Origin: Terriglobia bacterium | Lineage (GTDB): Bacteria; Acidobacteriota; Terriglobia; 20CM-2-55-15 | Assembly: GCA_965198225.1 (NCBI GenBank) | Contig: CBDAOY010000007.1 | Span: 256,001-320,000, forward strand | Reading direction: 5' to 3' | DNA length: 64,000 bases | In this document: piece after piece, positions 50,912 through 61,775 of the stretch | How the letters are laid out: each line of letters starts with the position of its first letter | How positions within the stretch are numbered: position 1 is the first letter of the stretch | Program-made: the position numbers and the translations under genes | Notes under the pieces: model-generated | Told to the model about the DNA's origin: nothing | Database searches by the model: none | What the model saw: only the letters and a program-made list of their open reading frames with translations

Positions 50912-50951
50912 TTTCCGCAGGCGCGGGGAAACGCTTTCACGATAATCGGGT

Positions 50952-50974
50952 GTAGGTGCGCTCTATGAGCGCAC
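50952..50974. repeat. Single REP
   Basis: GTAGGTGCGCTCTATGAGCGCAC. Confidence 0.75.
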
Positions 50975-51048
50975 CCTAGCGGGCAAAATGCTGCTGGCAA
51001 GTCCGTCAGCTACATCTACCAAGCGTTTGAAGCTGCTCGAGCTGATTC

Positions 51049-51357
51049 CTAAGGCTCAGAAGCTGCGCCCAAGATTGCGGCACCCGTTAGCAGCTCCGAC
51101 ACCGCAACTATAGTGCGAGAACGCGTGGTAATAATGAAGTTCCCGTTACCGTCGATGCTGCTCTCATCGATCGTCTCGGGGTCGCCGGCCGTGACGGTAA
51201 GGGCTGTTGCGGTGATAGCCGATCCTGAATCTTTCCTGGACTTGTCGGACTTCTTCGATGACCCGGCCGCGAGAAGTTCACTGGCAGTCGGAAACTGCAG
51301 GCTCGCCGCCATCACGATGGCCAGCAGCATGAAAATACACAACCGTCGAATCCACAT
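51049..51357 (-). CDS. Short secreted hypothetical protein, possibly truncated
   Basis: RBS AAGGAGG and a signal-peptide-like N-terminus. Confidence 0.45.
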   Translation of the reverse strand: MWIRRLCIFMLLAIVMAASLQFPTASELLAAGSSKKSDKSRKDSGSAITATALTVTAGDPETIDESSIDGNGNFIITTRSRTIVAVSELLTGAAILGAASEP

Positions 51358-52094
51358 GACTGTCCTCCTTCTGGATTTCCCTCCGATTTTTCCGGTGCGT
51401 ATCCCTGACTAACATGGGGCCCGGTAGGAGCAGAAGACAAAAGAGGACTTTTCTTTTCCCGTTCTTCACAATTTGGGGGACCTCCGAGCATTTGCAGACC
51501 TGCTTCCTCTGGGTTTGCTTTTTCACCGTTTGTTCCAGGGATCGTCAAATGGTCCGGCCCATGCGCGGTGTGCAGTTGTCATGTGCGCCGTTCGCGTGTC
51601 CCAGACAACGCTTCGGTCATTCGGATGCCGGGTTCCCCTATCAAACACAGCGTCTTTTATTGCTTATGCGGCGTCCGCTCATCGAAAACCGCTGTACACG
51701 AGGAATGGACGAGCAAAACGATAAAAAACAAAGGAGAGTGCACTCGTCTTTTCATCTCATCGATTTCTACTTTCAAAGAATCGGTTGCACGGCTGAGAAA
51801 AGCGGTGGGCAGCTTCAGAATTTGCGAAGTGACTTTCAAAGTTCGAGCATGACCTTCAAGATCCGCTTCACGACATTCCGGAATCGCCGCTATCGGGGAC
51901 CGTTTGGCCGATAAGTAAAACAAGCGGGGTTCTGCTGTGCAGGGGGTGGCAAGTCGCACGGCGGAACTGTCGCCGTTGGACTGTTATGTTGAGGTGCAGG
52001 AGGCAGAAGACTGGACTCAGACGAAGAATCGCGCCGCCAAGAAGAATCGCACGGGCCGAAGCACAAGAATCCCGCGAGGGCTTTTGAGCGGTCG

Positions 52095-52370
52095 TCAGAA
52101 CCAGTCCGGTTGAGTGGGATGCATGGAGGCGGCCGGGGCAATGGGTGGCGCACGCGACGGTAGACCGAGGCAGTCCAGGATTTTCTGTGTCGCCTCGGGA
52201 GGATGAATTGCTGCGAGGATTCGCATGCGGCTCAGGCATCGGGGGCATTCCAGGACATCCAAGGACCAGACGCGTTTCATCAGTTCCGCCCAGGAAAGTT
52301 CCGCCTCCCTCCCGTGCTCCCCCCATCGTGCCCGCGTCCATGACGAAGGAGAACTGGAATGGGCCTGAGC
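52095..52370. mobile_element. IS91-family transposase C-terminal remnants in opposite orientations
   Basis: Minus strand WAELMKRVWSLDVLECPRC..RMRILAAI...LGLPSRAPP; plus strand LPSRAPPIVPA. Confidence 0.65.
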
Positions 52371-52837
52371 TCACCGTTGGAATGATCCTGATCCGGAAGG
52401 ATCACTTCACCAAAGGAGATCTGCGCCCGAACCTCGGTTACCTTGTCTTCCTCCTCGGTCGTCACGTCTTCCTGCCCCGCGGCCAGCCTGCATTAAACCG
52501 CATAGCGGAATTCTTCGGCAGGTCCGCGGCTGCTTTGGGCTGTGAAGTTCACCCAGCGGGCGGCGCCACCACCTCGCGAACCGGTTAAATTCTCATCAAC
52601 TCATCCCTCATAGTGGGGCGTGATGACAAAAGGGCTTCTTGTTTTTCCTATGCTCAGCCTATGCTGGACGACGTGTTCGGACTCGCGCGAAAGCTGATCG
52701 ACCAGCACTGAGAATCCGAACGACTCATCACCGATGCGCGGACAGCTTACTCCCCGGGCTTCCAGTCGCCACTGAGAAATTGCTATAGTGCTCGGAACCA
52801 ACTCTGTGGACATCCCATACCTGTAGGAGCAGCATCG

Positions 52838-53440
52838 GTGGCCCAGTTCGAGCACGCTTGTTTCATCAGCTACAAACATCCTCCTCCAGCGCTGGCGTCG
52901 GTCAAACACAGTTGGCTGGAATTCATCGAGGCGTTCGAAAGACGGCTACAGTCGTTTCTGACGGTCAACTTGCCCGTCTACAGGGATGAACAGCTCGACG
53001 ACGAACCCGGTGCCCCCTACCCCACCGAGCTGTCTACGAGGATGTGCAAGAGCGTTTGTATGGTTGCCTTTCTGGTCCCGCAATACCTGGAGAGCAGCTG
53101 GTGCGTCGATGAATGGAAAGCGATGGAAAAGCTGGAGGTCCACAGACTTGGAAACGACAAGGGACTCATCCTTCCGATCGTGATGCATGGTCAGAAGGAG
53201 AGCTTCGAGCAGTTCGTCGGAGAACGCCATGTCGCCGACTTTTCACATATCGTCGCGCCAAAGCAGCAGCTGAAAACAGTCGGCAACAGCAAGCGCATCA
53301 AGAAGATGGCGGAACGGATTAGCCGGTTCAGTAGCAGTCTGGGGGGACCGAGTGTCGATTGCGGAACATTCACCATTACGGAAGGAACCGAGCGCGTGAT
53401 CCCTTCGCCTGACGCCGATCCCGATCCGCTGGCCCAGTAA
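52838..53440 (+). CDS. Stand-alone TIR-domain protein (FxsC-like)
   Basis: CFISYKH, VYRDE, VAFLVPQYLESSWCVDEW, ILPIV; RBS AGGAG. Confidence 0.8.
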   Translation: MAQFEHACFISYKHPPPALASVKHSWLEFIEAFERRLQSFLTVNLPVYRDEQLDDEPGAPYPTELSTRMCKSVCMVAFLVPQYLESSWCVDEWKAMEKLEVHRLGNDKGLILPIVMHGQKESFEQFVGERHVADFSHIVAPKQQLKTVGNSKRIKKMAERISRFSSSLGGPSVDCGTFTITEGTERVIPSPDADPDPLAQ

Positions 53441-55083
53441 TGCCCAACAAGTTCGGAAAGATCATCACATTCTACTCCTATAAGGGTGGCACGGGCCGCT
53501 CGATGGTGTTGGCAAACGTCGCCTATCTGTTGGCCAAATCCGAACATGTCTCCAAGGGCGTCCTCGTTATCGACTGGGACCTGGAAGCACCGGGGCTTCA
53601 AAGTTTCTTCTACAACCGCTTTCAAAAACAGTTCGGATCGAGCACACGCCCAAGTTACGCCGCGGAGCTGAACGGTGCTCAAGGCCTGATCGACTTCCTG
53701 ACCGACGTCAAGACCCACTACCGCAAAAGCCATCCCCTATCTGACGATGGGAAACTGGAGGCTCTTCCAGAAAGCACGGCCGATCAGGCGCTGACCTCGC
53801 GAATCTTCGAAGAAGCACTGGAAAAACACCCTTTGAAGAAATACCGGTTGGATCTGGACGAACTGCCGATGTTGTCGGTGATGAAGGCGGGCAGCCAGCA
53901 GACGGATCGCGGTGACGAAGACACCTATTGGACCAAGGTGAAGGGTTTCGACTGGAGCGAATTCTACCGTCAGTACGGGAGCTTCTTTACCCACTTCCGC
54001 GAGCACTTGATGAAGACCTTCGACTTCGTTTTGATCGATTCTCGTACCGGGCTGACCGACATCGGCGGCATCTGCACGCGGGTGATGCCTGAGACGCTCG
54101 TCGCGGTCTTTGCGCCGAATCATCAGAACATCGCGGGCGTCGAACGCGTTGTCCGAAAGTCGGTCGGCTACCGCCGGCGTTCGCGGGATCCGCGTCCGCT
54201 GAGCGCTTTTCCCTTGGCCTCCCGAATCGATGCGTCGGCCTCGCGACTTCGAAAGATCTGGTGGCGTGGTGGGGAATTGGGTGGCGAGCAGATCACCGGA
54301 TACCAGGCGACGTTCGAAAAGCTGTTTAAAGAGCTCTACGAGTTGGAGGAATGCGACCTTGGACCGTACTTCGACGCGACCCAGGTTCCACACGACAGCG
54401 ATTTCGCATATGGCGAATCGGTGGCCGCCATGGAGCAGGGCACCGAGGACCGTTTCTCGATTGGCCACGCCTGCGAGGAGCTGATGGAACGCCTGGTCCA
54501 GACTCCTTTTCCGTGGGAGCCACTGGGAACCTCCGAAGCCCGCGGGGGAGTGTACGTTAGCTATCGCCGCAAGGATTCCGCACATCAGGCTCGGCTCTTG
54601 CATGACGCGCTGGTTGAGCGAGTCGGTGCGGGATGGGTCTACATGGACGTGGACCACATGGCTATCGGAACGAGTTTCAGGGAGACAATGGCCGCGATGC
54701 TGGATCGAGCCGCGCTCATGCTGGTGGTGATCGGTCCGGAGTGGCTCAGCACAGGCTCATCAGAAACGCCAACGATCGCCGACCCAGGCGATTTCGTCCA
54801 CCACGAGATCGCGGAGGCTCTCAGACGCGACATGCGGATCGTTCCCTTGCTGGTCGACAACGCCAAGATGCCCCGCCCCGAAGTGCTGCCCCCGGACCTG
54901 TTCGGCCTGATGCAATTCAACGCTTTCGAGATCACCAACGATCAGTGGGACGCCGACTTGGCCGGGCTTTTCCAAGCCCTCGACGACATCTTGCCAAGCG
55001 CACAGATTCTGACGCGATGGGAGCTTTTTGTCCGGATACTGAAACGATTCTGGAAGTCTCTCCGCGAGGCTCTGTCAGGTTAA
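53440..55083 (+). CDS. ParA/MinD-like NTPase (KGGxGR variant) with a C-terminal TIR
   Basis: TFYSYKGGTGRS, VLVIDWDLEAPGL, FVLIDSRTG; C-terminal VYVSYRRKDS...YMDVD...VVIGPEW...FVHHEIAEAL. Confidence 0.88.
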   Translation: MPNKFGKIITFYSYKGGTGRSMVLANVAYLLAKSEHVSKGVLVIDWDLEAPGLQSFFYNRFQKQFGSSTRPSYAAELNGAQGLIDFLTDVKTHYRKSHPLSDDGKLEALPESTADQALTSRIFEEALEKHPLKKYRLDLDELPMLSVMKAGSQQTDRGDEDTYWTKVKGFDWSEFYRQYGSFFTHFREHLMKTFDFVLIDSRTGLTDIGGICTRVMPETLVAVFAPNHQNIAGVERVVRKSVGYRRRSRDPRPLSAFPLASRIDASASRLRKIWWRGGELGGEQITGYQATFEKLFKELYELEECDLGPYFDATQVPHDSDFAYGESVAAMEQGTEDRFSIGHACEELMERLVQTPFPWEPLGTSEARGGVYVSYRRKDSAHQARLLHDALVERVGAGWVYMDVDHMAIGTSFRETMAAMLDRAALMLVVIGPEWLSTGSSETPTIADPGDFVHHEIAEALRRDMRIVPLLVDNAKMPRPEVLPPDLFGLMQFNAFEITNDQWDADLAGLFQALDDILPSAQILTRWELFVRILKRFWKSLREALSG

Positions 55084-55153
55084 CTGGCCGCATGGCACAA
55101 TTCATTTGCGGACCGAAATGCGTCCTCGATCTCCGGGCCTGCGTATCGTCGTC

Positions 55154-58000
55154 ATGAGCAAAGTATTTCTCTCATACTCCCGAGAAGACAAGGACTTCGC
55201 ACGCCGGTTGGCGGGCGAGCTGACCGAACAGGGTCAGGACGTATGGATCGATCTCGACGATATTCCTCCAAGCGCAGAATGGAAGTCAGAGATACGCTCG
55301 GCGATAGAGGCTGCAGACAACTGTGGTTTTGTACTTAGTCCCGGATTTGTCGCATCCGAAATCTGTGCTGAGGAGCTTGCGCACGCCATCGAGCATAACA
55401 AGCGCATCGTTCCTTTGCTGTATCGAGACGTGGAGCCGAGCAGTTTGGACAAAGCGCTCGCGTCACTGAACTGGATTGTCTGCCGGAACGAAGAAGGCCT
55501 ATCCGGCGTGGTTACCCAGGTGATGGCGGCGCTGACGACAGACCTTGAATGGGTGCGAGCACATACTCGTCTGCTCGTGCGGGCGCTTGAGTGGGAAAGA
55601 GCCGATCACAACCGCAGCTATCTTCTCCGGGGTGACGATCTCAGCACGGCGGAACAGTCGGTACAAAATGCCAGCGCCAAGGAGCCACAACCAAGCGAGT
55701 CGCAGTCGAGGTATCTGAACGCCAGCCGAAGAGCTGTTACCCGACGTTTGCGCAACACAATTGCTTCGCTCGCCGTTGCGCTGGTAGTCACTGCAGCGTT
55801 GGGCGTGACGGCGTGGATTCAGCGAGAGGCGAAGGAAGAACAGCGCCTAGTTGCTGTAGCTCGACAGGCCGCCGCGCGCGCTGAACTGCTGCTCGACCAG
55901 GAACCTCGACTGCTCCAATACTCGCTGTTTTTGGCGGCGGTTTCCCTGCGGGATTCCCCGACCCTTGAAGGCGAGCGCGCATTACGTAGATCCGTAGACT
56001 TGCAGCCGAAAGCAGTGATGAAGCTCCCTCTCGAGGGCGACGCGGCAGTTGTGGTCTTTGAGTCCGACAATCGATTCTTGGTGATTGGTGGTGAACTTGG
56101 CATTCGAGTATTCGACGTATCCCTTGACACCGAGGTGCTGTCGCTCTGGGATCAATACCCAGTTCACTTGGTGGCAGTGAGCCCGGATGGACGATGGGTA
56201 GGAGCGGCGAGCGGTAGCGAAGCTCGGATCTTCGCATTCGACACGGGCAGGGTTGTGGCGAGGCTGCCGCATCGGAACACTGTGCGTGCCTTGGTCTTCA
56301 GCCCCGACAGCGCTTCGCTAGCAACAGCGGCCGAAGGCAATGAGGCTCGAGTTTGGGTGTCTGAAACTGGGACTTTCTCCTACCAGTTAGACGGGGCGGT
56401 ATCGGCGACCCTTGCTTTCAGCCCCGACGGAAGATGGATCGCGGGAGGCTCGATTGCCGGCGTTGAGGTCTGGAAGGCAGCGACTGGCGAACTAGTGACC
56501 GAGATCCAAACAGCGGGTGGAGTGGGATCTCTAGCGTTTGGTCCGGAGGGAGTACAGCTTGCGATAGGAAGTGCGACTTCGTCCTCAGGGTCCAATTATT
56601 ACGCAGCCATAATGAATGTGGAAACGGGCGATGTCTCAACACGTGTGCGACACAAGAATCCGGTTCGCACCGTGGCCTTCAGTCCCGATGGCGACTACGT
56701 CGCAAGCGGGAGTGATGGTTTCAACCTCCGTGTCTGGGACCCGAGAACAGGCGCCGTTGTCGCCGAAATGCGACACGGAGACGAGATAAGAAAGGTGGCC
56801 TTCAACTCCAGTGGGAGCCGGGTTGTCACTCTGAGTCTGGATGGAACGGCGCGAGTATGGCAGGCAGCGACGGGCGACGAGGTGGCTCGGGTGGGGCACG
56901 AAAGAGGCGTGGCGGATGTGGACCTTAGTCCGGATGGTCGGTGGCTGGCCACCGCAAGTGGGAACGAGGTCGTTGTGTGGGAAGCGGCGGCAAGGGGGGA
57001 GTCAACACGCATGGAAACTGGGGACGTGCGCGTGGCTGCGCTCGCCTTCGGCGATGACAGCCGGACGCTGATCGCGATAACGGCCGGCGGTTCTGCCCCG
57101 CTCGCTAGAACCTACAAGATCGATACCGCCGAGGAGGTAGGGCAGACTGCACTCAGCAACTACGCCCAGTGGTTCGCAATTAGCTCAAACTCAAGGTGGG
57201 TCGCGTCAACTGCGGGTAGCAGCGTTGATGTCTTTGACGTTGTCGAGGGGGAATGGGCAGCACAGTTCTATCACCAGGGCATGGCGTTGTATCTGACGTT
57301 CAGTGCTGATGGTCGATGGCTGGCAATCGGCGGGACGAACGACGGGGTTGTCAGGATTTGGGACGTGTCCGACGGATTTGATCGCGGGCGAACGCCAGTG
57401 GTACGCATGCCGCATCAGAACTGGGTGAACGCAGTGGCATTCAGCCATGACGGTAGATTGGTGGCAACGGGGGACTATCTCAAGGCCCGAGTTTGGGGAG
57501 TTGAGACGGGCGATCAAGTTGCCGAGTTCAGTCATCCATCCGCCGTGGACGCGTTGGCTCTGAGCCGCGACAACCGGTTGTTAGCATCAGCCAGCAGCGG
57601 AACCGTTTATCTTTGGGATGTCGCGGCAGAAGAAGAAGTTGCGCGAATAGTACACGGAGGGCCCGTCCGGGCCTTGGCATTCAGCGAAGAGGGTCACCTT
57701 GCGACCGCGGGCGGACCAGTTGCGCGAATCTGGGACATTGGAAGCGGGCTAGAGTTAAACCGCGTGGTGCACGAGGGCCGGATCGATAGTTTGGCCTTTA
57801 GTCGCGATGGCCGATGGCTCGCGACGGGGTCTCTCGACGGGACGGCCCGGGTGTGGGCTCGCACGCTGGAAAGAAACGATCTTATCCTGGAAGCGTGTAA
57901 TCGAATTGTCCACGAGCTCAACGCGGATACACTGCGAAGATACTTTGGCGAGATGCCGGTTTCGACGCCATGCCAGGAGTTCCGAGGCGACGACGGGTGA
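55154..58000 (+). CDS. TIR - helical - TM - WD40 repeat protein
   Basis: VFLSYSRED...VLSPGFVASEICAEEL; TM IASLAVALVVTAALGVTAWI; many FSPDG..LA...RVW repeats. Confidence 0.9.
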   Translation: MSKVFLSYSREDKDFARRLAGELTEQGQDVWIDLDDIPPSAEWKSEIRSAIEAADNCGFVLSPGFVASEICAEELAHAIEHNKRIVPLLYRDVEPSSLDKALASLNWIVCRNEEGLSGVVTQVMAALTTDLEWVRAHTRLLVRALEWERADHNRSYLLRGDDLSTAEQSVQNASAKEPQPSESQSRYLNASRRAVTRRLRNTIASLAVALVVTAALGVTAWIQREAKEEQRLVAVARQAAARAELLLDQEPRLLQYSLFLAAVSLRDSPTLEGERALRRSVDLQPKAVMKLPLEGDAAVVVFESDNRFLVIGGELGIRVFDVSLDTEVLSLWDQYPVHLVAVSPDGRWVGAASGSEARIFAFDTGRVVARLPHRNTVRALVFSPDSASLATAAEGNEARVWVSETGTFSYQLDGAVSATLAFSPDGRWIAGGSIAGVEVWKAATGELVTEIQTAGGVGSLAFGPEGVQLAIGSATSSSGSNYYAAIMNVETGDVSTRVRHKNPVRTVAFSPDGDYVASGSDGFNLRVWDPRTGAVVAEMRHGDEIRKVAFNSSGSRVVTLSLDGTARVWQAATGDEVARVGHERGVADVDLSPDGRWLATASGNEVVVWEAAARGESTRMETGDVRVAALAFGDDSRTLIAITAGGSAPLARTYKIDTAEEVGQTALSNYAQWFAISSNSRWVASTAGSSVDVFDVVEGEWAAQFYHQGMALYLTFSADGRWLAIGGTNDGVVRIWDVSDGFDRGRTPVVRMPHQNWVNAVAFSHDGRLVATGDYLKARVWGVETGDQVAEFSHPSAVDALALSRDNRLLASASSGTVYLWDVAAEEEVARIVHGGPVRALAFSEEGHLATAGGPVARIWDIGSGLELNRVVHEGRIDSLAFSRDGRWLATGSLDGTARVWARTLERNDLILEACNRIVHELNADTLRRYFGEMPVSTPCQEFRGDDG

Positions 58001-58111: not shown

Positions 58112-58209
58112 CAGTATGAAAGGACGCCCCTTATCTGGGGTTTGTTGAGAGAAAACTCTCAACAAACCTGATCAACGTTGGCGCGTTGATCCCAGAAAGG
58201 AGCGTTGTA

Positions 58210-59271
58210 ATGAAACGAGACAAGTATGTGGGGATGGATGTCCACCAGTCAATGACAGTGGTGGCGGTGATGAATGCCGAAGGGAAGATCGTGCTGGAGA
58301 CCATGGTGCCCACGGCAGCGTCGCCGATCCGTGAGTTGATCGAGAGTCTGAGCGGGCGGTTGCATGTGACGCTGGAGGAGGGCACGCAGGCCCAGTGGTT
58401 ACACGAGGTGATTGGCGACCTGGCAAAGGAAATCGTGGTGTGTGATCCCAAACGGAACAAACTCCTAACGGAAGGCTCGAAGGGAGACAAGCCCGATGCG
58501 CGGAAACTGGCGGAGCTTCTACGGGTCGGAATGCTGCGATCGGTATGGCACGGGCACGAGCAGACACGTGGTTTGAAACAGATGGTTCGGGCCTATGAGA
58601 CCTTCACCATCGACACGAAGCGGACAATGCTTCGGATTAAGGCCATCTACCGGGGTCGTGGCATTCGGACGGGGGGATCGGGAGTCTACCAGGCGACACA
58701 GCGCGAGCAGTGGCTGGGACAGATCCCTGAGACGGGAATGCGGCAACGCGCGGCCTGGCTGTATGAACAGTTGGATCAGGTTCGGAAACTACGCAAGCAG
58801 GCCAAGGCTGGCATGCTGGAGGAGAGCCGCCATCACCAGGCCGTCGCTCTGCTGCGAAGCATTCCCCAACTGGGTCCGATCCGAGCGGCTCAGATTGTGG
58901 CCACGGCCGATACGCCACACCGGTTCCGAACCAAGCGGCAGTTCTGGAGCTATAGCGGCCTGGCGGTAGTCACCCACAGCAGCGCGGAATATGAGTTTCA
59001 GGCGGGTCGGGTCGTGCGGCGATCCAAACCAGTGGCCACACGGGGATTGAACCGGAACTGCAACCGGCGCCTGAAATCGGTCTTCGTTTCGGCAGCCACT
59101 GCGGGAGGTAGGAGCGATCCCTGGCGGGAGTATCTGGAGAGTCTCAAAGAGAAAGGTATGCGGCCAGAGATGGCTCGGCTCACTCTGGCGCGGAAGATTG
59201 CAACCGTCGCTCTGACGATTTGGAAGAAAGGAGAAACATTCGATCCTAAGAAACTGAACGCGACACCATAG
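58210..59271 (+). CDS. IS110-family DEDD recombinase
   Basis: YVGMDVH (D), LEEG (E), KGDKPDA (DD), IPQLGPI, SYSGL..HSS catalytic-Ser region, ARKI. Confidence 0.92.
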   Translation: MKRDKYVGMDVHQSMTVVAVMNAEGKIVLETMVPTAASPIRELIESLSGRLHVTLEEGTQAQWLHEVIGDLAKEIVVCDPKRNKLLTEGSKGDKPDARKLAELLRVGMLRSVWHGHEQTRGLKQMVRAYETFTIDTKRTMLRIKAIYRGRGIRTGGSGVYQATQREQWLGQIPETGMRQRAAWLYEQLDQVRKLRKQAKAGMLEESRHHQAVALLRSIPQLGPIRAAQIVATADTPHRFRTKRQFWSYSGLAVVTHSSAEYEFQAGRVVRRSKPVATRGLNRNCNRRLKSVFVSAATAGGRSDPWREYLESLKEKGMRPEMARLTLARKIATVALTIWKKGETFDPKKLNATP

Positions 59272-60000: not shown

Positions 60001-60255
60001 GCTGACACTGCGGCGCGCCGAGCAGGGCCAACGGCCCGGTCCATGCGGACACTCCCAGCTGGCGGAGCTTCTGGAATCTAAGCCTTGCGTTTCGAAACCT
60101 GTTGGGGAGGATTCGGCTTCAGCCGAAGCAAGGCGCATCAGCCGTACGTACAACGTGGCGAGCTCCAATCTCCAGGTCCTCACTCTTCTGGAAGGGGACC
60201 TGGGAGACGGCTCGGAGGATGGGTGTTGCGGTTCGAAGAATGTGCGGTCATAGAC

Positions 60256-61670
60256 CATTCCGTCCAAGATAGGTCCTGAGCCGACCCCCTAGAAAAGTAA
60301 AAAGCCCTCCTCAACCCTTGCCGGGGCATCCGTGTGTGTGTACATGCACCCGGCAATTCCAAAGGAGGGCTCCGCCATGGTAGCTGTCGCGAGCTTGTTC
60401 AATCAATTGTTGCAACACTTCCCCCGAACCGAATTCGAGAGTCTGGTCCAACTGCACCAAGCCGAACGCCATGCCAAGGGGTTTGCCTGCTGGACCCAAT
60501 TCGTATCCATGCTGTTCTGCCAGCTCGCCCATACCGATTCCCTGCGTGAAATCTGCAACGGGCTGAACTGTTGTCTGGGCAAGCTGATTCACCTGGGCAT
60601 TTCACACGGCCCGAAAAAGTCGACTCTGTCCTATGCGAACCGGCACCGGCCGGCGGCCTTGTTCGAACATCTGTTCTGGACCGCCCTGGGACGATTTCGC
60701 CAACAACAACTGTTGGGCCGCCGGTCGCATCGGTTTCGATTCCGAAACAAGTTGCTCACGATGGATTCCACCACGATTGGCCTCTGTCTGAACCTGTTCC
60801 CATGGGCGCGCTTCAAGGCCGATAAAGGCGGCATCAAGGCCCATGTCCTGCTCGACCACGACGACTACATGCCCCGCTTCCTGCGCCTCACCGATGCCAA
60901 AGGCAGCGACGTCCAGATGGCCCACCATATGCCGCTCAATCCCGGTTCCATCGTCGTGGGCGACCGCGCCTATATCGACTTCTCTCTGTTCGAAAATGGA
61001 CGCTCGGCGGCATCTTCTTCGTTGCTCGATCCCACTACAACTTACGCTACCGCGTCTTGGATGACCGTCCGCTTCCTCAGAAGCGCCGCATCCTCTCCGA
61101 TCAACTGATCCGTCTCACCGGCCGGGGCACTCATGGCCGCTGTCGTCAACCCCTACGGCGCATCGTCATCCAACGCCTCGATTATCCTGACGATCCGTTG
61201 GTCTTGCTGACCAACCACTTGACGTTTGGCTCATCCACCATCGCCGCTATCTACAAGGATCGCTGGCAGATCGAGGTCTTCTTCAAAACCCTCAAGCAGA
61301 ACCTGAAAATCAAAACCTTCATCGGAACGACCGAAAATGCGCTCCGCATTCAGATTTGGACAGCCTTGATCGCCCTGCTGTTGTTGAAATGGCTCCACTT
61401 CCTCTCCCGATGGTCCCTCTCCAACCTCGCCTCCATGCTCCGCCTGAACCTTTTTACCTACCGCAATTTGCGCGACTGGCTCGACGATCCCTTTCTCACT
61501 CCACCCCTGGAGCCGCTCCCCGCTCAACTTTCCCTACAACTCCACTGATTTTGGACAGGCTCCATGATTCGAAAAGGCAGACCTCCTCCCGGAAATCCCT
61601 TTTCTGTCTCCATAACCGATGTCCTATCAATCTCCGGTGGGTCAACCCTGTCCTATTTTGGACAGCTGTG
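60256..61670 (+). mobile_element. IS4-family element inserted into a REP
   Basis: CA...TG ends with GTCCAA(G/A)ATAGG IR; 9-bp duplication GTCATAGAC at 60247-60255 and 61671-61679. Confidence 0.88.
60377..61548 (+). pseudogene. IS4-family transposase (DUF4372 + DDE), frameshift near 60995
   Basis: QFVSMLFCQL, MDSTTI, GIKAH, GDRAY, YKDRWQIEVFFKTLKQ; adding one A to GAAAATGG restores FEKWTLGGIFFV. Confidence 0.88.
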
Positions 61671-61721
61671 GTCATAGACCGCACCTACACCTTCTCGGGC
61701 ACTGTTGCTTACCTGCGAGAT

Positions 61722-61744
61722 GTGCGGTCATAGACCGTACCTAC
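61722..61744. repeat. Inverted REP
   Basis: GTGCGGTCATAGACCGTACCTAC. Confidence 0.7.
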
Positions 61745-61775
61745 ACGAAACGTCCCGTCTTCTATTCCGGTTCCC

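What the first reader, a model, noticed from the sequence alone, without database searches (positions are those of the whole stretch)
52838..58000. Triple-TIR operon: TIR + KGGxGR ParA/MinD-like NTPase-TIR + TIR-TM-WD40, candidate new immune or signalling system
Seen: three co-oriented genes, the first two coupled by TAATG and the third 70 bp downstream. Each has a TIR domain retaining the Glu of the alphaC motif (WCVDE, VHHE, ICAEE). Gene 2 has a deviant Walker A (YKGGTGRS, Arg in place of Lys). Gene 3 has the helical segment usually found after a STAND NTPase (HTRLLVRALEW...YLLRG), a TM helix and a large WD40 propeller, but no NTPase. The block lies between IS91, IS3, IS110 and Fic remnants. 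Known: bacterial TIRs act as NADases or signal producers in Thoeris, CBASS, Pycsar and short-Argonaute systems, and KGGxGR-type ATPases occur beside FxsC-like TIRs in FxSxx-COOH loci. Inference: a split NLR/Toll-like receptor, in which an extracytoplasmic WD40 sensor recruits an NTPase switch and an effector through TIR-TIR contacts. I know no characterised system with this exact composition.
Basis: partly seen in the sequence, partly recalled or inferred. Interest (0 to 1): 0.82.

Follow-up and report, generated by a model that had tools for sequence, protein, structure and literature searches.

The report
TIR-ParA immune pair plus TIR-WD40 neighbour
Two of the three genes belong to a widespread bacterial "TIR-ParA" cell-suicide defence family that has been predicted but never tested, and the third gene, a membrane TIR-WD40 protein, may or may not be its sensor.

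Summary
The three genes are real. Gene 1 (52838-53440) is a 200-aa TIR. Gene 2 (53440-55083) is a ParA-like NTPase with Walker A KGGTGRS, fused to a SARM1-like TIR. Gene 3 (55154-58000) is TIR, one TM helix, then about 14 WD40 repeats. All three TIRs keep the catalytic-position Glu.

Genes 1+2 are not a new kind of system. In 150 of 151 related loci a TIR gene sits directly upstream of this ParA. This dyad is the "TIR-ParA apoptosis system" (ConB2 ParA clade, FxsC/FxsT relatives) described computationally in a preprint of October 2026. I found no experimental work on it.

Two features are specific to this locus. First, the ParA carries no sensor domain, and its fused TIR retains the SARM1 E642-equivalent Glu, whereas the preprint calls the fused TIR inactive. 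Second, a TIR-TM-WD40 gene lies 70 bp downstream.

Gene 3 was next to none of 160 related dyads. Its relatives stand alone in 4 of 4 places checked. Its GC3 (0.62) differs from genes 1-2 (0.70-0.73). However, analogous three-TIR triads with a separate LRR-Roc-COR-TIR protein recur in six loci.

Verdict: a member of a known predicted family with a possibly new trans-sensor variant. Interest is moderate.

The parts
52838..53440 (+). Gene 1: 200-aa stand-alone TIR (TIR-FC type). The catalytic-position Glu E92 is encoded at 53111-53113.
   Evidence: ORF. Pfam TIR_2 E 3.6e-10. AF2 model pLDDT 89.5, with Foldseek top hits to the plant TIR NADases RUN1, RPP1 and RPS4 and to AbTir. E92 is invariant in 27 of 27 homologues. 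A homologous TIR gene lies directly upstream of the ParA in 150 of 151 loci.
53440..54525 (+). Gene 2, N-terminal part (residues 1-362): ParA/MinD-like NTPase of the KGGVGR (ConB2) type. Walker A K15-S21 is encoded at 53482-53502. It also has D45-W-D47 followed by P51-G52, and Walker B D195..D200.
   Evidence: NCBIfam NF047398 at 128.4 bits, cut-off 90. The motif residues are invariant in 14 of 14 homologues. The model matches Soj, ParA and MinD structures with TMt 0.6-0.71.
54526..55083 (+). Gene 2, C-terminal part (residues 363-547): SARM1-like TIR. Glu E456 is encoded at 54805-54807.
   Evidence: Pfam TIR_2 E 1.1e-11. phmmer against PDB gives SARM1 TIR as best hit, E 1.6e-9, with E456 aligned on SARM1 E642 (E642 is catalytic according to passages of PMC7282519). 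Foldseek TMt 0.78-0.84 to SARM1 TIR.
55154..58000 (+). Gene 3: 948 aa from ATG 55154 (an alternative TTG lies at 55106). TIR at 55163-55492, with Glu at 55373-55375. Conserved helical block. TM helix at 55760-55828. About 14 WD40 repeats at 56138-57997.
   Evidence: The start is set by the alignment with 25 homologues.
52098..52370 (-). C-terminal remnant of an IS91/ISCR-type transposase. It is multicopy sequence that bounds the three-gene block on the left.
   Evidence: NCBIfam ISCR_clade_Ia, E 2.4e-7, profile positions 431-485 of 509. Raised contig depth at 52005-52405, and contig ends at about 52181-52231.
58186..59271 (+). Intact IS110-family transposase. It is multicopy and bounds the block on the right.
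   Evidence: Pfam DEDD_Tnp_IS110 and Transposase_20. Depth is 47-223 against 5-15 over the three genes, and contigs end at 58135-58136.
60332..61548 (+). Broken IS4-like transposase (DUF4372 + DDE_Tnp_1), split into two overlapping frames.
50949..50973 (.). A 25-nt multicopy repeat. Inverted copies lie at 61667-61691 and 61723-61746, and another copy at 60240-60261. Together they bracket the low-GC island.
   Evidence: the repeat finder I2, D2 and D5. Very high contig depth and many joints at these places. GC dips to 0.54-0.60 between about 50.5 and 61.5 kb.

Best explanation
Genes 1 and 2 are a TIR-ParA dyad on a small mobile island. Gene 1 is a small TIR with an NADase-type active-site Glu. 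It is translationally coupled to gene 2, a ParA-like NTPase of the KGGxGR (ConB2) clade. Gene 2 carries no sensor domain; instead it is fused to a SARM1-like TIR that also keeps the catalytic Glu.

The most likely mechanism, which is inferred and not shown, is as follows. The ParA part works as a nucleotide-dependent dimerisation or oligomerisation switch. Once triggered, it brings the TIR domains of genes 1 and 2 together into an active assembly. That assembly cleaves NAD+ (or makes an NAD-derived signal) and stops or kills the infected cell, which is abortive infection.

Gene 3 (TIR, TM helix, extracytoplasmic WD40 propellers) belongs to a separate, widespread family that elsewhere stands alone. 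Here it is most likely an independently acquired neighbour on the same island, not an obligatory third subunit.
For: Family membership: NF047398 scores above its cut-off. The ConB2 hallmarks are all invariant: Arg in Walker A, and a PG motif after the DxD. They match the description in sections 10 and 12 of the preprint.

Dyad: TAATG overlap. A TIR gene lies directly upstream on the same strand in 150 of 151 loci with enough upstream sequence (130 of 151 with single-sequence phmmer). These loci span Acidobacteriota, Bacteroidota, Burkholderiales, Cyanobacteria, Chloroflexota and Actinomycetes.

Domain shuffling typical of conflict systems: the C-terminal part of the ParA protein varies among TIR, TPR, WD40, peptidase S8, peroxidase, CHASE2, discoidin, FGE-sulfatase, NACHT and NB-ARC.

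Active sites: gene 1 E92 is invariant in 27 of 27, and gene 1 has a TIR fold. Gene 2 E456 is invariant in 14 of 14 and aligns with SARM1 E642.

Sporadic distribution and mobility: no full-length orthologue was found in 400 other genomes of the same phylum. The island has low GC. IS elements lie on both sides.

Gene 3 as a separate module: no gene 3-like gene lies beside any of 160 dyads. None of 4 gene 3-like genes in other genomes has a ParA or a second TIR within 14-16.5 kb. GC3 is 0.61-0.63 for gene 3 against 0.70-0.73 for genes 1-2 and 0.75-0.80 for host genes. In addition, 14 of 19 short ParA dyads have no third TIR gene, so a dyad without a sensor can exist alone.
Against: No experiment exists for any TIR-ParA system. 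Searches for KGGVGR, PDC-M28, FxSxx-COOH and FxsC/FxsT/TIR-ParA found only the computational preprint and Kaur et al. 2020.

NADase activity, ATP binding by the Arg-variant P-loop and any defence phenotype are all inferred. Kaur et al. 2020 (passages) called related MinD/ParA-like domains inactive.

A dyad without any sensor domain leaves the trigger unexplained.

Several facts fit co-transcription and coupling of gene 3. It lies only 70 nt downstream on the same strand, with no terminator-like site between. It travels with genes 1-2 on single contigs in other samples, although those are near-identical DNA and so not independent evidence.

The neighbourhood scan gave only scattered defence-type hits, the top family matching 5 of 111 neighbour ORFs, and it had no baseline.
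Confidence: 0.5

Rival explanations
1. Integrated three-gene, three-TIR system. Gene 3 is the sensor supplied in trans. Its extracytoplasmic WD40 propellers detect an envelope or phage cue. Its cytoplasmic TIR then clusters and nucleates the ParA-TIR and the small TIR by homotypic TIR contacts, much as a Toll-like receptor recruits TIR adaptors. ParA sets the threshold.
For: Same strand, 70-nt gap, and no terminator-like site. The block sits in one piece between repeats in contigs of two other runs. The ParA of gene 2 lacks the sensor domain that most family members carry. A separate TIR-tagged sensor gene of at least 250 aa lies within 600 bp on the same strand in 5 of 19 short-ParA loci, against 5 of 72 long-ParA loci. 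These include six LRR-Roc-COR-TIR + small TIR + ParA triads (L033, L034, L044, L050, L052, L056). The C-terminal extension of the ParA in these triads is a weak Pfam TIR in 4 of 6. Other examples are GAF-cyclase-TIR (L092), TIR-NB-ARC-TPR (L083), and TIR plus nSTAND1-WD40 genes (L079). The TM topology places the TIR inside and the WD40 outside.
Against: No gene 3-like gene lies beside any of 160 related dyads. Gene 3-like genes stand alone in 4 of 4 other places. The GC3 of gene 3 differs from genes 1-2 by about 0.1. The five short-ParA cases are all one related ROCO type, so they are not independent. L090, the one near relative of the gene 2 architecture with downstream sequence, has no such gene within 3.3 kb.
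Confidence: 0.35
2. Not anti-phage. The genes form a signalling or developmental module, for example envelope-stress or kin/cell-contact signalling through NAD-derived messengers, in a bacterium with social behaviour.
For: The preprint reports enrichment of TIR-ParA systems in multicellular bacteria (section 26). TIR domains can make signals rather than deplete NAD+ (established for Thoeris and plant TIRs; recalled). Defence-type neighbours are sparse.
Against: The genes lie on an IS-flanked, low-GC island and are sporadically distributed. The domain shuffling is typical of conflict systems.
Confidence: 0.1
3. Inert cargo: a decaying remnant of a mobile island with no current function.
For: It is surrounded by broken IS elements. 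No RNA data are available.
Against: All three ORFs are intact, with every family-invariant residue in place. The sequence is held at 97-100% of sampled words in runs of four studies.
Confidence: 0.05

Closest known systems
TIR-ParA 'apoptosis' systems of the ConB2 ParA clade (Li, Burroughs & Aravind, bioRxiv 10.64898/2026.10.19.760177; I read the abstract, sections 12, 23, 25, 26 and 41, and passages)
   Same: An upstream TIR with an active-site Glu, followed by a ParA with Arg in place of the Walker A Lys and a PG motif after sensor-1. The gene order is conserved. A subset has a TIR fused behind the ParA. The predicted logic is sensor, then ParA switch, then TIR NADase.
   Different: Here the ParA protein ends after the TIR and has no sensor domain. 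The fused TIR is SARM1-like and keeps the Glu, whereas the paper describes the fused TIR (TIR-FT) as having lost the site. A separate TIR-TM-WD40 gene follows. The main text does not mention such trans-encoded TIR-tagged sensors: the terms Roc, LRR, WD40 and 'in trans' occur 0 times. I could not see its figures or supplements (S8, S9), which may show them.
FxsC / FxsT of actinomycete FxSxx-COOH loci (NCBIfam NF040588 and others)
   Same: A TIR protein followed by a KGGVGR-type ParA protein. L069 and L083 (Phytohabitans) show ParA-TIR-NB-ARC-TPR behind a TIR protein of about 440 aa.
   Different: Gene 1 scores 29 bits against the FxsC_Nterm cut-off of 130 and lacks the second (FxsC-C) domain. 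There is no NB-ARC or TPR module. No radical-SAM or peptide genes occur among the island's ORFs. At the Glu position the FxsT-type TIR of L083 has Leu.
SARM1 TIR NADase
   Same: The TIR of gene 2 is its closest solved relative (E 1.6e-9, 24-26% identity, TMt 0.78-0.84). The catalytic Glu aligns, and a Phe sits at the Trp638 position by my count on the alignment.
   Different: No ARM or SAM domains are present; oligomerisation would have to come from ParA. Activity is untested.
Thoeris (ThsA/ThsB)
   Same: Bacterial TIR proteins in defence. There are weak ThsB-model hits.
   Different: Scores are far below the curated cut-offs: ThcB4 gives 18-42 bits against 220. No ThsA-type partner occurs among the island's ORFs.
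PADLOC candidate system PDC-M28
   Same: The ParA domain of gene 2 hits model PDC-M28B (E 7e-18), as do the family's other ParA domains (1e-16 to 6e-23).
   Different: Only part of the profile (from about position 126) is matched. No PDC-M28A match was found for gene 1 or its homologues at E up to 1. I found no paper on PDC-M28.
Toll-like receptor / TIR-adaptor signalling and plant TNL receptors
   Same: Gene 3 has the layout of a receptor: repeat ectodomain, one TM helix, cytoplasmic TIR. Several TIR proteins are encoded together.
   Different: The ectodomain is WD40, not LRR. The order is N-terminal TIR inside and C-terminal sensor outside. No STAND NTPase is present. Homotypic recruitment is only a hypothesis here.

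Membership tests
TIR-ParA system (ConB2 ParA clade) | ParA with Walker A KGGxGR[ST] (Arg in place of the second Lys) | tested here: met
   YKGGTGRS. K15, G16, G17, T18, G19, R20 and S21 are invariant in 14 of 14. The hallmark is stated in preprint section 12.
TIR-ParA system (ConB2 ParA clade) | PG motif downstream of the sensor-1 DxD, and a DhhhhD Walker B | tested here: met
   D45-W-D47-L-E-A-P51-G52 and D195..D200 are invariant.
TIR-ParA system (ConB2 ParA clade) | A gene for a TIR with an active-site Glu directly upstream of the ParA gene, on the same strand | tested here: met
   TAATG overlap. E92 is invariant in 27 of 27. The same arrangement is found in 150 of 151 related loci.
TIR-ParA system (ConB2 ParA clade) | Hallmark, not strictly defining: a sensor domain fused to the ParA protein | tested here: not met
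   The 547-aa protein holds only ParA and one TIR.
TIR-ParA system, TIR-FT subset | Subset feature, not defining for the system: the TIR fused to ParA has lost the NADase Glu | tested here: not met
   E456 aligns with SARM1 E642 and is invariant in 14 of 14. In an HMM alignment, 26 of 36 ParA-fused TIRs in the loci also have Glu at this column.
NCBIfam NF047398 AAA_KGGVGR | Score at or above the curated cut-off (90 bits) | tested here: met
   128.4 bits, residues 7-240.
FxsC (NF040588) / FxSxx-COOH system | FxsC_Nterm score at or above 130 bits, and FxsA/FxsB peptide and radical-SAM genes nearby | tested here: not met
   29.2 bits. The island's ORFs hold no such genes.
Thoeris | ThsB-type TIR above cut-off together with a ThsA-type effector | tested here: not met
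   ThcB4 gives 17.7, 23.7 and 41.5 bits against a cut-off of 220. PADLOC ThsB E-values are 0.005 to 1e-10. No ThsA-like ORF lies in the island.
PADLOC PDC-M28 | Both the A and the B components | tested here: not met
   B gives only a partial match, E 7e-18. A is not matched at E up to 1.
STAND/NLR receptor (gene 3) | A central NACHT, NB-ARC or nSTAND NTPase | tested here: not met
   Residues 131-345 give no NTPase family at E up to 1. The top-25 limit hides weaker hits elsewhere in the protein.
TIR NADase (enzymatic activity) | NAD+ cleavage that depends on the conserved Glu | not testable with these tools
   Only the residue and the fold are shown.

The most novel reading that the evidence does not exclude
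ParA-TIR dyads without a sensor domain use the TIR domain as a homotypic adaptor to plug in separately encoded, TIR-tagged sensors. The sensor here is a membrane receptor with extracytoplasmic WD40 propellers. Elsewhere it is an LRR-Roc-COR GTPase, a GAF-cyclase or an NB-ARC-TPR protein. On this reading the locus would be a bacterial analogue of a Toll-like receptor pathway: outside sensor, TM helix, cytoplasmic TIR, TIR adaptor/switch, TIR NADase executioner. It would have two catalytically competent TIRs, one of them SARM1-like, gated by a ParA ATP switch.
Probability: 0.3. Interest if true: 0.8.

Novelty: new variant of a known kind. Interest (0 to 1): 0.45.

Why it matters
No TIR-ParA system has been tested at the bench, so the family's mechanism is still open: how a ParA-type ATPase with an Arg P-loop would gate TIR NADases. 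This locus is a compact 5.2-kb candidate with intact genes.

It bears on two specific points. First, is the TIR fused to ParA always a dead scaffold? Here it looks like a competent SARM1-type enzyme. Second, can sensors be supplied in trans through TIR-TIR contacts?

If the second holds, it would show receptor-adaptor-effector signalling by TIR domains across the bacterial membrane. That would be a direct parallel to animal Toll-like receptor signalling. If it does not hold, the locus is simply one more member of a large predicted family lying next to a common TIR-WD40 gene.

Tried and rejected
1. Complex prediction. I submitted gene 2 (alignment A1), gene 1 (A2) and gene 3 residues 1-200 (A3) as partner. 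The verdict was 'no answer', score 0.00. It counts neither for nor against binding.

2. Expression. No RNA holder was listed, so nothing can be said about transcription. Laid contigs show only that genes 1-3 are contiguous in near-identical DNA from other samples.

3. Context of the closest full-length gene 2 homologues (P0002-P0014, 47-52% identity). I then tried matching 'longest_contig' lengths between hit lists. This paired four gene 1 homologues with ParA proteins (5552, 105605, 3742, 206054). It found no partner, either gene 1-like or gene 3-like, for the P0002-P0014 contigs, so it is uninformative for them.

4. The helical block of gene 3 against the nSTAND1-WD40 protein of L079 by BLASTP showed no similarity.

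5. Defence-island enrichment. PADLOC at E 1e-10 on 111 neighbour ORFs from 29 non-redundant loci gave 56 families. Each matched few members: PDC-M50A 5, MTase_II 2, ThsB 2, mad2 2, and others 1. With no baseline set, no enrichment is claimed. These 111 were the first of 167 candidate ORFs from 43 loci, cut by the tool's residue limit.

6. The promoter/terminator scan was uninformative: counts were within the shuffle expectation.

9. Same-phylum searches. Beside the window's own genome, 11 of 400 genomes matched gene 2. Eight matched only its TIR part, three matched the ParA part, and none matched full length. Two of 400 matched the N-terminal part of gene 3. This reads as sporadic occurrence among the genomes sampled, not as absence.

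10. I considered and rejected filing the locus under Thoeris, FxSxx-COOH or PDC-M28 (see the membership rows).

Full report
WHAT IS THERE. The window holds three intact, co-oriented ORFs at 52838-53440 (200 aa), 53440-55083 (547 aa) and 55106-58000. The first two overlap in TAATG. For gene 3, the alignment with 25 homologues starts at MSKVF.., so the true start is ATG 55154. That makes it 948 aa and leaves 70 nt after the stop of gene 2.

Pfam finds TIR_2 in all three (E 3.6e-10, 1.1e-11, 6.7e-26), and WD40 repeats fill the last ~620 residues of gene 3. NCBIfam places residues 7-240 of gene 2 in NF047398, 'KGGVGR-motif variant AAA ATPase', at 128 bits against a cut-off of 90.

Gene 3 has one strong hydrophobic helix (Kyte-Doolittle 2.1, residues 219-241 in TTG numbering). 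An Arg-rich stretch precedes it and a mixed or acidic one follows. This puts the TIR in the cytoplasm and the roughly 14 WD40 repeats outside. The stretch between TIR and TM is a strongly conserved helical block in the family but matches no Pfam family.

ACTIVE-SITE RESIDUES. Gene 1: the Glu of SSWCVDEW (E92) is invariant in 27 of 27 homologues. The AF2 model (pLDDT 89.5) is a TIR fold whose best Foldseek matches are the plant TIR NADases RUN1, RPP1 and RPS4, followed by AbTir.

Gene 2: the C-terminal TIR is most similar to human SARM1 TIR by sequence (E 1.6e-9) and by predicted fold (TMt 0.78-0.84, 24-26% identity). In the HMMER alignment DFVHHE lies on SARM1 DWVHKE. Counting from the full-length chain numbering, E456 falls on E642, the catalytic Glu of SARM1 (passages of PMC7282519). 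E456 is invariant in 14 of 14 close homologues.

Gene 3: the Glu of ICAEE (E74, ATG numbering) is invariant in 26 of 26 and aligns with the WCxxE Glu position of TLR1.

ParA part of gene 2: K15-G-G-T-G-R20-S21, D45-W-D47, P51-G52 and D195..D200 are all invariant. The model matches Soj, ParA and MinD (TMt 0.6-0.71).

THE DYAD IS A LARGE, KNOWN FAMILY. Gene 2 has at least 2675 homologues. The ParA module (about residues 1-360) is joined to many different C-terminal parts: TIR, TPR, WD40, peptidase S8, haem peroxidase, CHASE2, discoidin/NADase_transloc, FGE-sulfatase, NACHT and NB-ARC-TPR.

All 160 loci have the ParA, and 151 have at least 650 bp upstream. Of those, 137 have a TIR ORF under 420 aa ending at the ParA start on the same strand. 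Thirteen more have a 266-510-aa TIR ORF there; most of these are 423-510 aa, the two-domain FxsC-like form. The one remaining locus (L071) is at a contig edge. That gives 150 of 151. With the window's gene 1 alone as phmmer query the count was 130 of 151. The hosts span Acidobacteriota, Bacteroidota, Burkholderiales (Duganella, Janthinobacterium), Cyanobacteria, Chloroflexota, Planctomycetota and Actinomycetes.

LITERATURE. A preprint of 22 Oct 2026 (Li, Burroughs, Aravind; bioRxiv 10.64898/2026.10.19.760177) describes exactly this arrangement. I read the abstract, sections 12, 23, 25, 26 and 41, and passages. It calls them 'TIR-ParA apoptosis systems' in ParA clade ConB2. The clade is marked by Arg in place of the Walker A Lys and a PG motif after sensor-1. 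The systems have an upstream active TIR (TIR-FC, the TIR of FxsC). In a subset a further TIR is fused behind ParA (TIR-FT, as in FxsT), said to have lost the NADase site. Variable sensor modules are attached (STAND, ligand-binding, or receptor-like with a TM helix).

Their model is that the sensor signals to the ParA switch, which triggers the TIR-FC NADase and cell death. They report enrichment in multicellular bacteria. The work is purely computational.

Kaur et al. 2020 (PMC7159879, passages) had noted an 'inactive MinD/ParA-like domain' beside AP-ATPases near FxSxx-COOH peptide systems. Searches for KGGVGR, PDC-M28, FxSxx-COOH and FxsC/FxsT/TIR-ParA found nothing else relevant. I therefore found no experimental work in the library searched.

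WHAT IS PARTICULAR HERE. (a) Gene 2 ends after its TIR and has no sensor domain. (b) That TIR is SARM1-like and keeps the Glu. In an HMM alignment of the 36 of 160 ParA proteins that carry a TIR, 26 have Glu at the WCxxE column. The exceptions include the FxsT-type L083 (Leu). So 'inactive TIR-FT' does not describe the fused TIRs in general, and does not describe this one. A Glu alone does not prove activity. (c) A TIR-TM-WD40 gene follows.

IS GENE 3 PART OF THE SYSTEM? Evidence against:
- No gene 3-like ORF (TIR plus its helical block, or TIR plus WD40) lies beside the dyad in any of the 160 loci. L008 has a 467-aa relative 3 kb away on the other strand.
- Gene 3 belongs to a big family of ~900-1000-aa TIR-TM-WD40 proteins (196 hits at E<=0.001).
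- In the four places where relatives were found in two other genomes of the phylum, no ParA and no second TIR ORF lies within the 14-16.5 kb fetched.
- GC3 is 0.61-0.63 for gene 3, against 0.70 and 0.73 for genes 1 and 2 and 0.75-0.80 for flanking host genes. This suggests a different history.
- L090, the nearest relative of the gene 2 architecture that has downstream sequence, shows no such gene within 3.3 kb.

Evidence for:
- The gap is 70 nt on the same strand, with no terminator-like site.
- Single contigs of two other runs span 52.2-58.135 kb, with repeats at both ends. This is near-identical DNA and so not independent.
- There is a recurring analogy. Of 91 loci that could be judged, a third TIR-bearing gene of at least 250 aa lies within 600 bp on the same strand in 5 of 19 with a short ParA (<=560 aa), against 5 of 72 with a long ParA.
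- Those five, plus L056 (not among the 91), are LRR-Roc-COR-TIR + small TIR + ParA triads. The ~130-aa tail of the ParA is a weak Pfam TIR in 4 of 6. They come from five Bacteroidota loci and one Thermoanaerobaculia locus.
- Other third genes are GAF-cyclase-TIR (L092), TIR-NB-ARC-TPR (L083), a 528-aa TIR protein (L022), a 309-aa TIR protein (L070), and TIR, WD40 and nSTAND1-WD40 genes (L079).

The ROCO cases are related to each other, so these numbers are descriptive only. The main text of the preprint does not mention Roc, LRR, WD40 or sensors in trans (0 occurrences each). Its figures and supplements were not visible to me.

CONTEXT. The block lies in a stretch of lower GC (0.54-0.60 from about 50.5 to 61.5 kb, against 0.62-0.65 outside). 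To the left is an IS91/ISCR-type transposase remnant (52098-52370, minus strand, E 2.4e-7). To the right are an intact, multicopy IS110 transposase (58186-59271) and a broken IS4-like one (60332-61548). A 25-nt multicopy repeat brackets the whole island.

In 400 other genomes sampled from the same phylum, none has a full-length gene 2 orthologue and three have a ParA-part match. Two have a match to the N-terminal part of gene 3. So the genes are sporadic there and probably arrived by horizontal transfer.

PADLOC models give only a partial PDC-M28B match for the ParA and weak TIR matches. The locus is not a system that PADLOC 2.0 defines.

HOW IT MOST LIKELY WORKS. Shown: the domain make-up, the conserved catalytic-position residues, the tight and near-universal TIR-ParA gene pair, the shuffling of sensor modules, and the mobile context. 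Everything functional is inferred.

I take the ParA as an ATP-dependent dimerisation or oligomerisation switch, as in ParA, MinD and Soj, which is established for the family. The Arg variant is untested. On a trigger it brings the small TIR and its own SARM1-like TIR into the oligomeric arrangement that TIR NADases need (established for SARM1, AbTir and plant TIRs; recalled). NAD+ loss or an NAD-derived signal then stops the infected cell.

I put 0.5 on this with gene 3 as an independent neighbour, 0.35 on gene 3 being the trans sensor, 0.1 on a non-defence signalling role, and 0.05 on an inert relic.

VERDICT. The locus is a member of a known, computationally predicted family. It has a variant architecture: a ParA without a sensor domain, a SARM1-like TIR that looks competent, and a possible trans sensor. 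That architecture is worth a bench test.

Noticed in passing
L033:4833-9410, L034:4714-9410, L044:4861-9437, L050:4388-9446, L052:2636-7252, L056:463-5116: A conserved three-gene array: LRR-Roc-COR-A-COR-B-TIR (805-968 aa), then a small TIR, then a short ParA (470-482 aa). The C-terminal ~130 aa of the ParA is a weak Pfam TIR in 4 of 6. Gaps between the genes are small or the frames overlap. Five loci are from Bacteroidota MAGs and one from Thermoanaerobaculia. L033 holds a second such array downstream. The main text of the TIR-ParA preprint does not mention this.
   Followed up: partly
L092:7222-12016: A TIR-ParA dyad is followed 117 bp downstream by a GAF-nucleotide cyclase-TIR protein (582 aa).
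   Followed up: partly
L097:1290-9437: A dyad (short ParA with TIR) lies directly downstream of a DUF1156 methyltransferase-like gene and a PLD-SNF2 helicase gene. This looks like a restriction or DISARM-like defence neighbourhood; that name is from recall.
   Followed up: no
L004:7821-9608, L084:1568-3328; L005:7980-11582, L086:7935-11675: The relatives with the closest ParA domain (51-55% identity) carry different C-terminal modules. Two have a discoidin/'NADase_transloc' F5/8 type C domain. Two are ~1200-aa proteins with a weak cytochrome c-like motif.
   Followed up: no
window 50949-50973, 60240-60261, 61667-61691, 61723-61746: A ~25-nt repeat is present in very many copies in the organism. 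Contig depth there is 70-500 against 5-15 elsewhere, and many contigs join or end at these places. One copy is inverted relative to the others, and together they bracket the low-GC island. Two direct copies flank the broken IS4-like element.
   Followed up: partly
window 58186-59271: The IS110-family element is multicopy and polymorphic in all four runs laid: depth 47-223, with many variant letters.
   Followed up: no
G000:C4:32768-33205 (L002) and G000:C7:50125-50556 (L003): The same genome holds two further ORFs (349 and 390 aa, stop to stop) with TIRs 31-35% identical to the SARM1-like TIR of gene 2. Similar TIRs occur in 8 of 400 other genomes of the phylum.
   Followed up: partly
window 51000-52100: About 1.1 kb of the lowest GC in the region (0.54) has no ORF that matches Pfam or NCBIfam. 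Its content is unexplained.
   Followed up: partly
P0001, P0241, P0121: The database representatives of genes 1 and 2 differ from the window by one residue each. The representative for gene 3 is only 650 aa at 100% identity. Near-identical copies therefore exist in other assemblies. In two of the four runs laid (X1 and X6), contigs break inside the WD40 repeats at about 56.47-56.50 and 56.90-56.91 kb.
   Followed up: no
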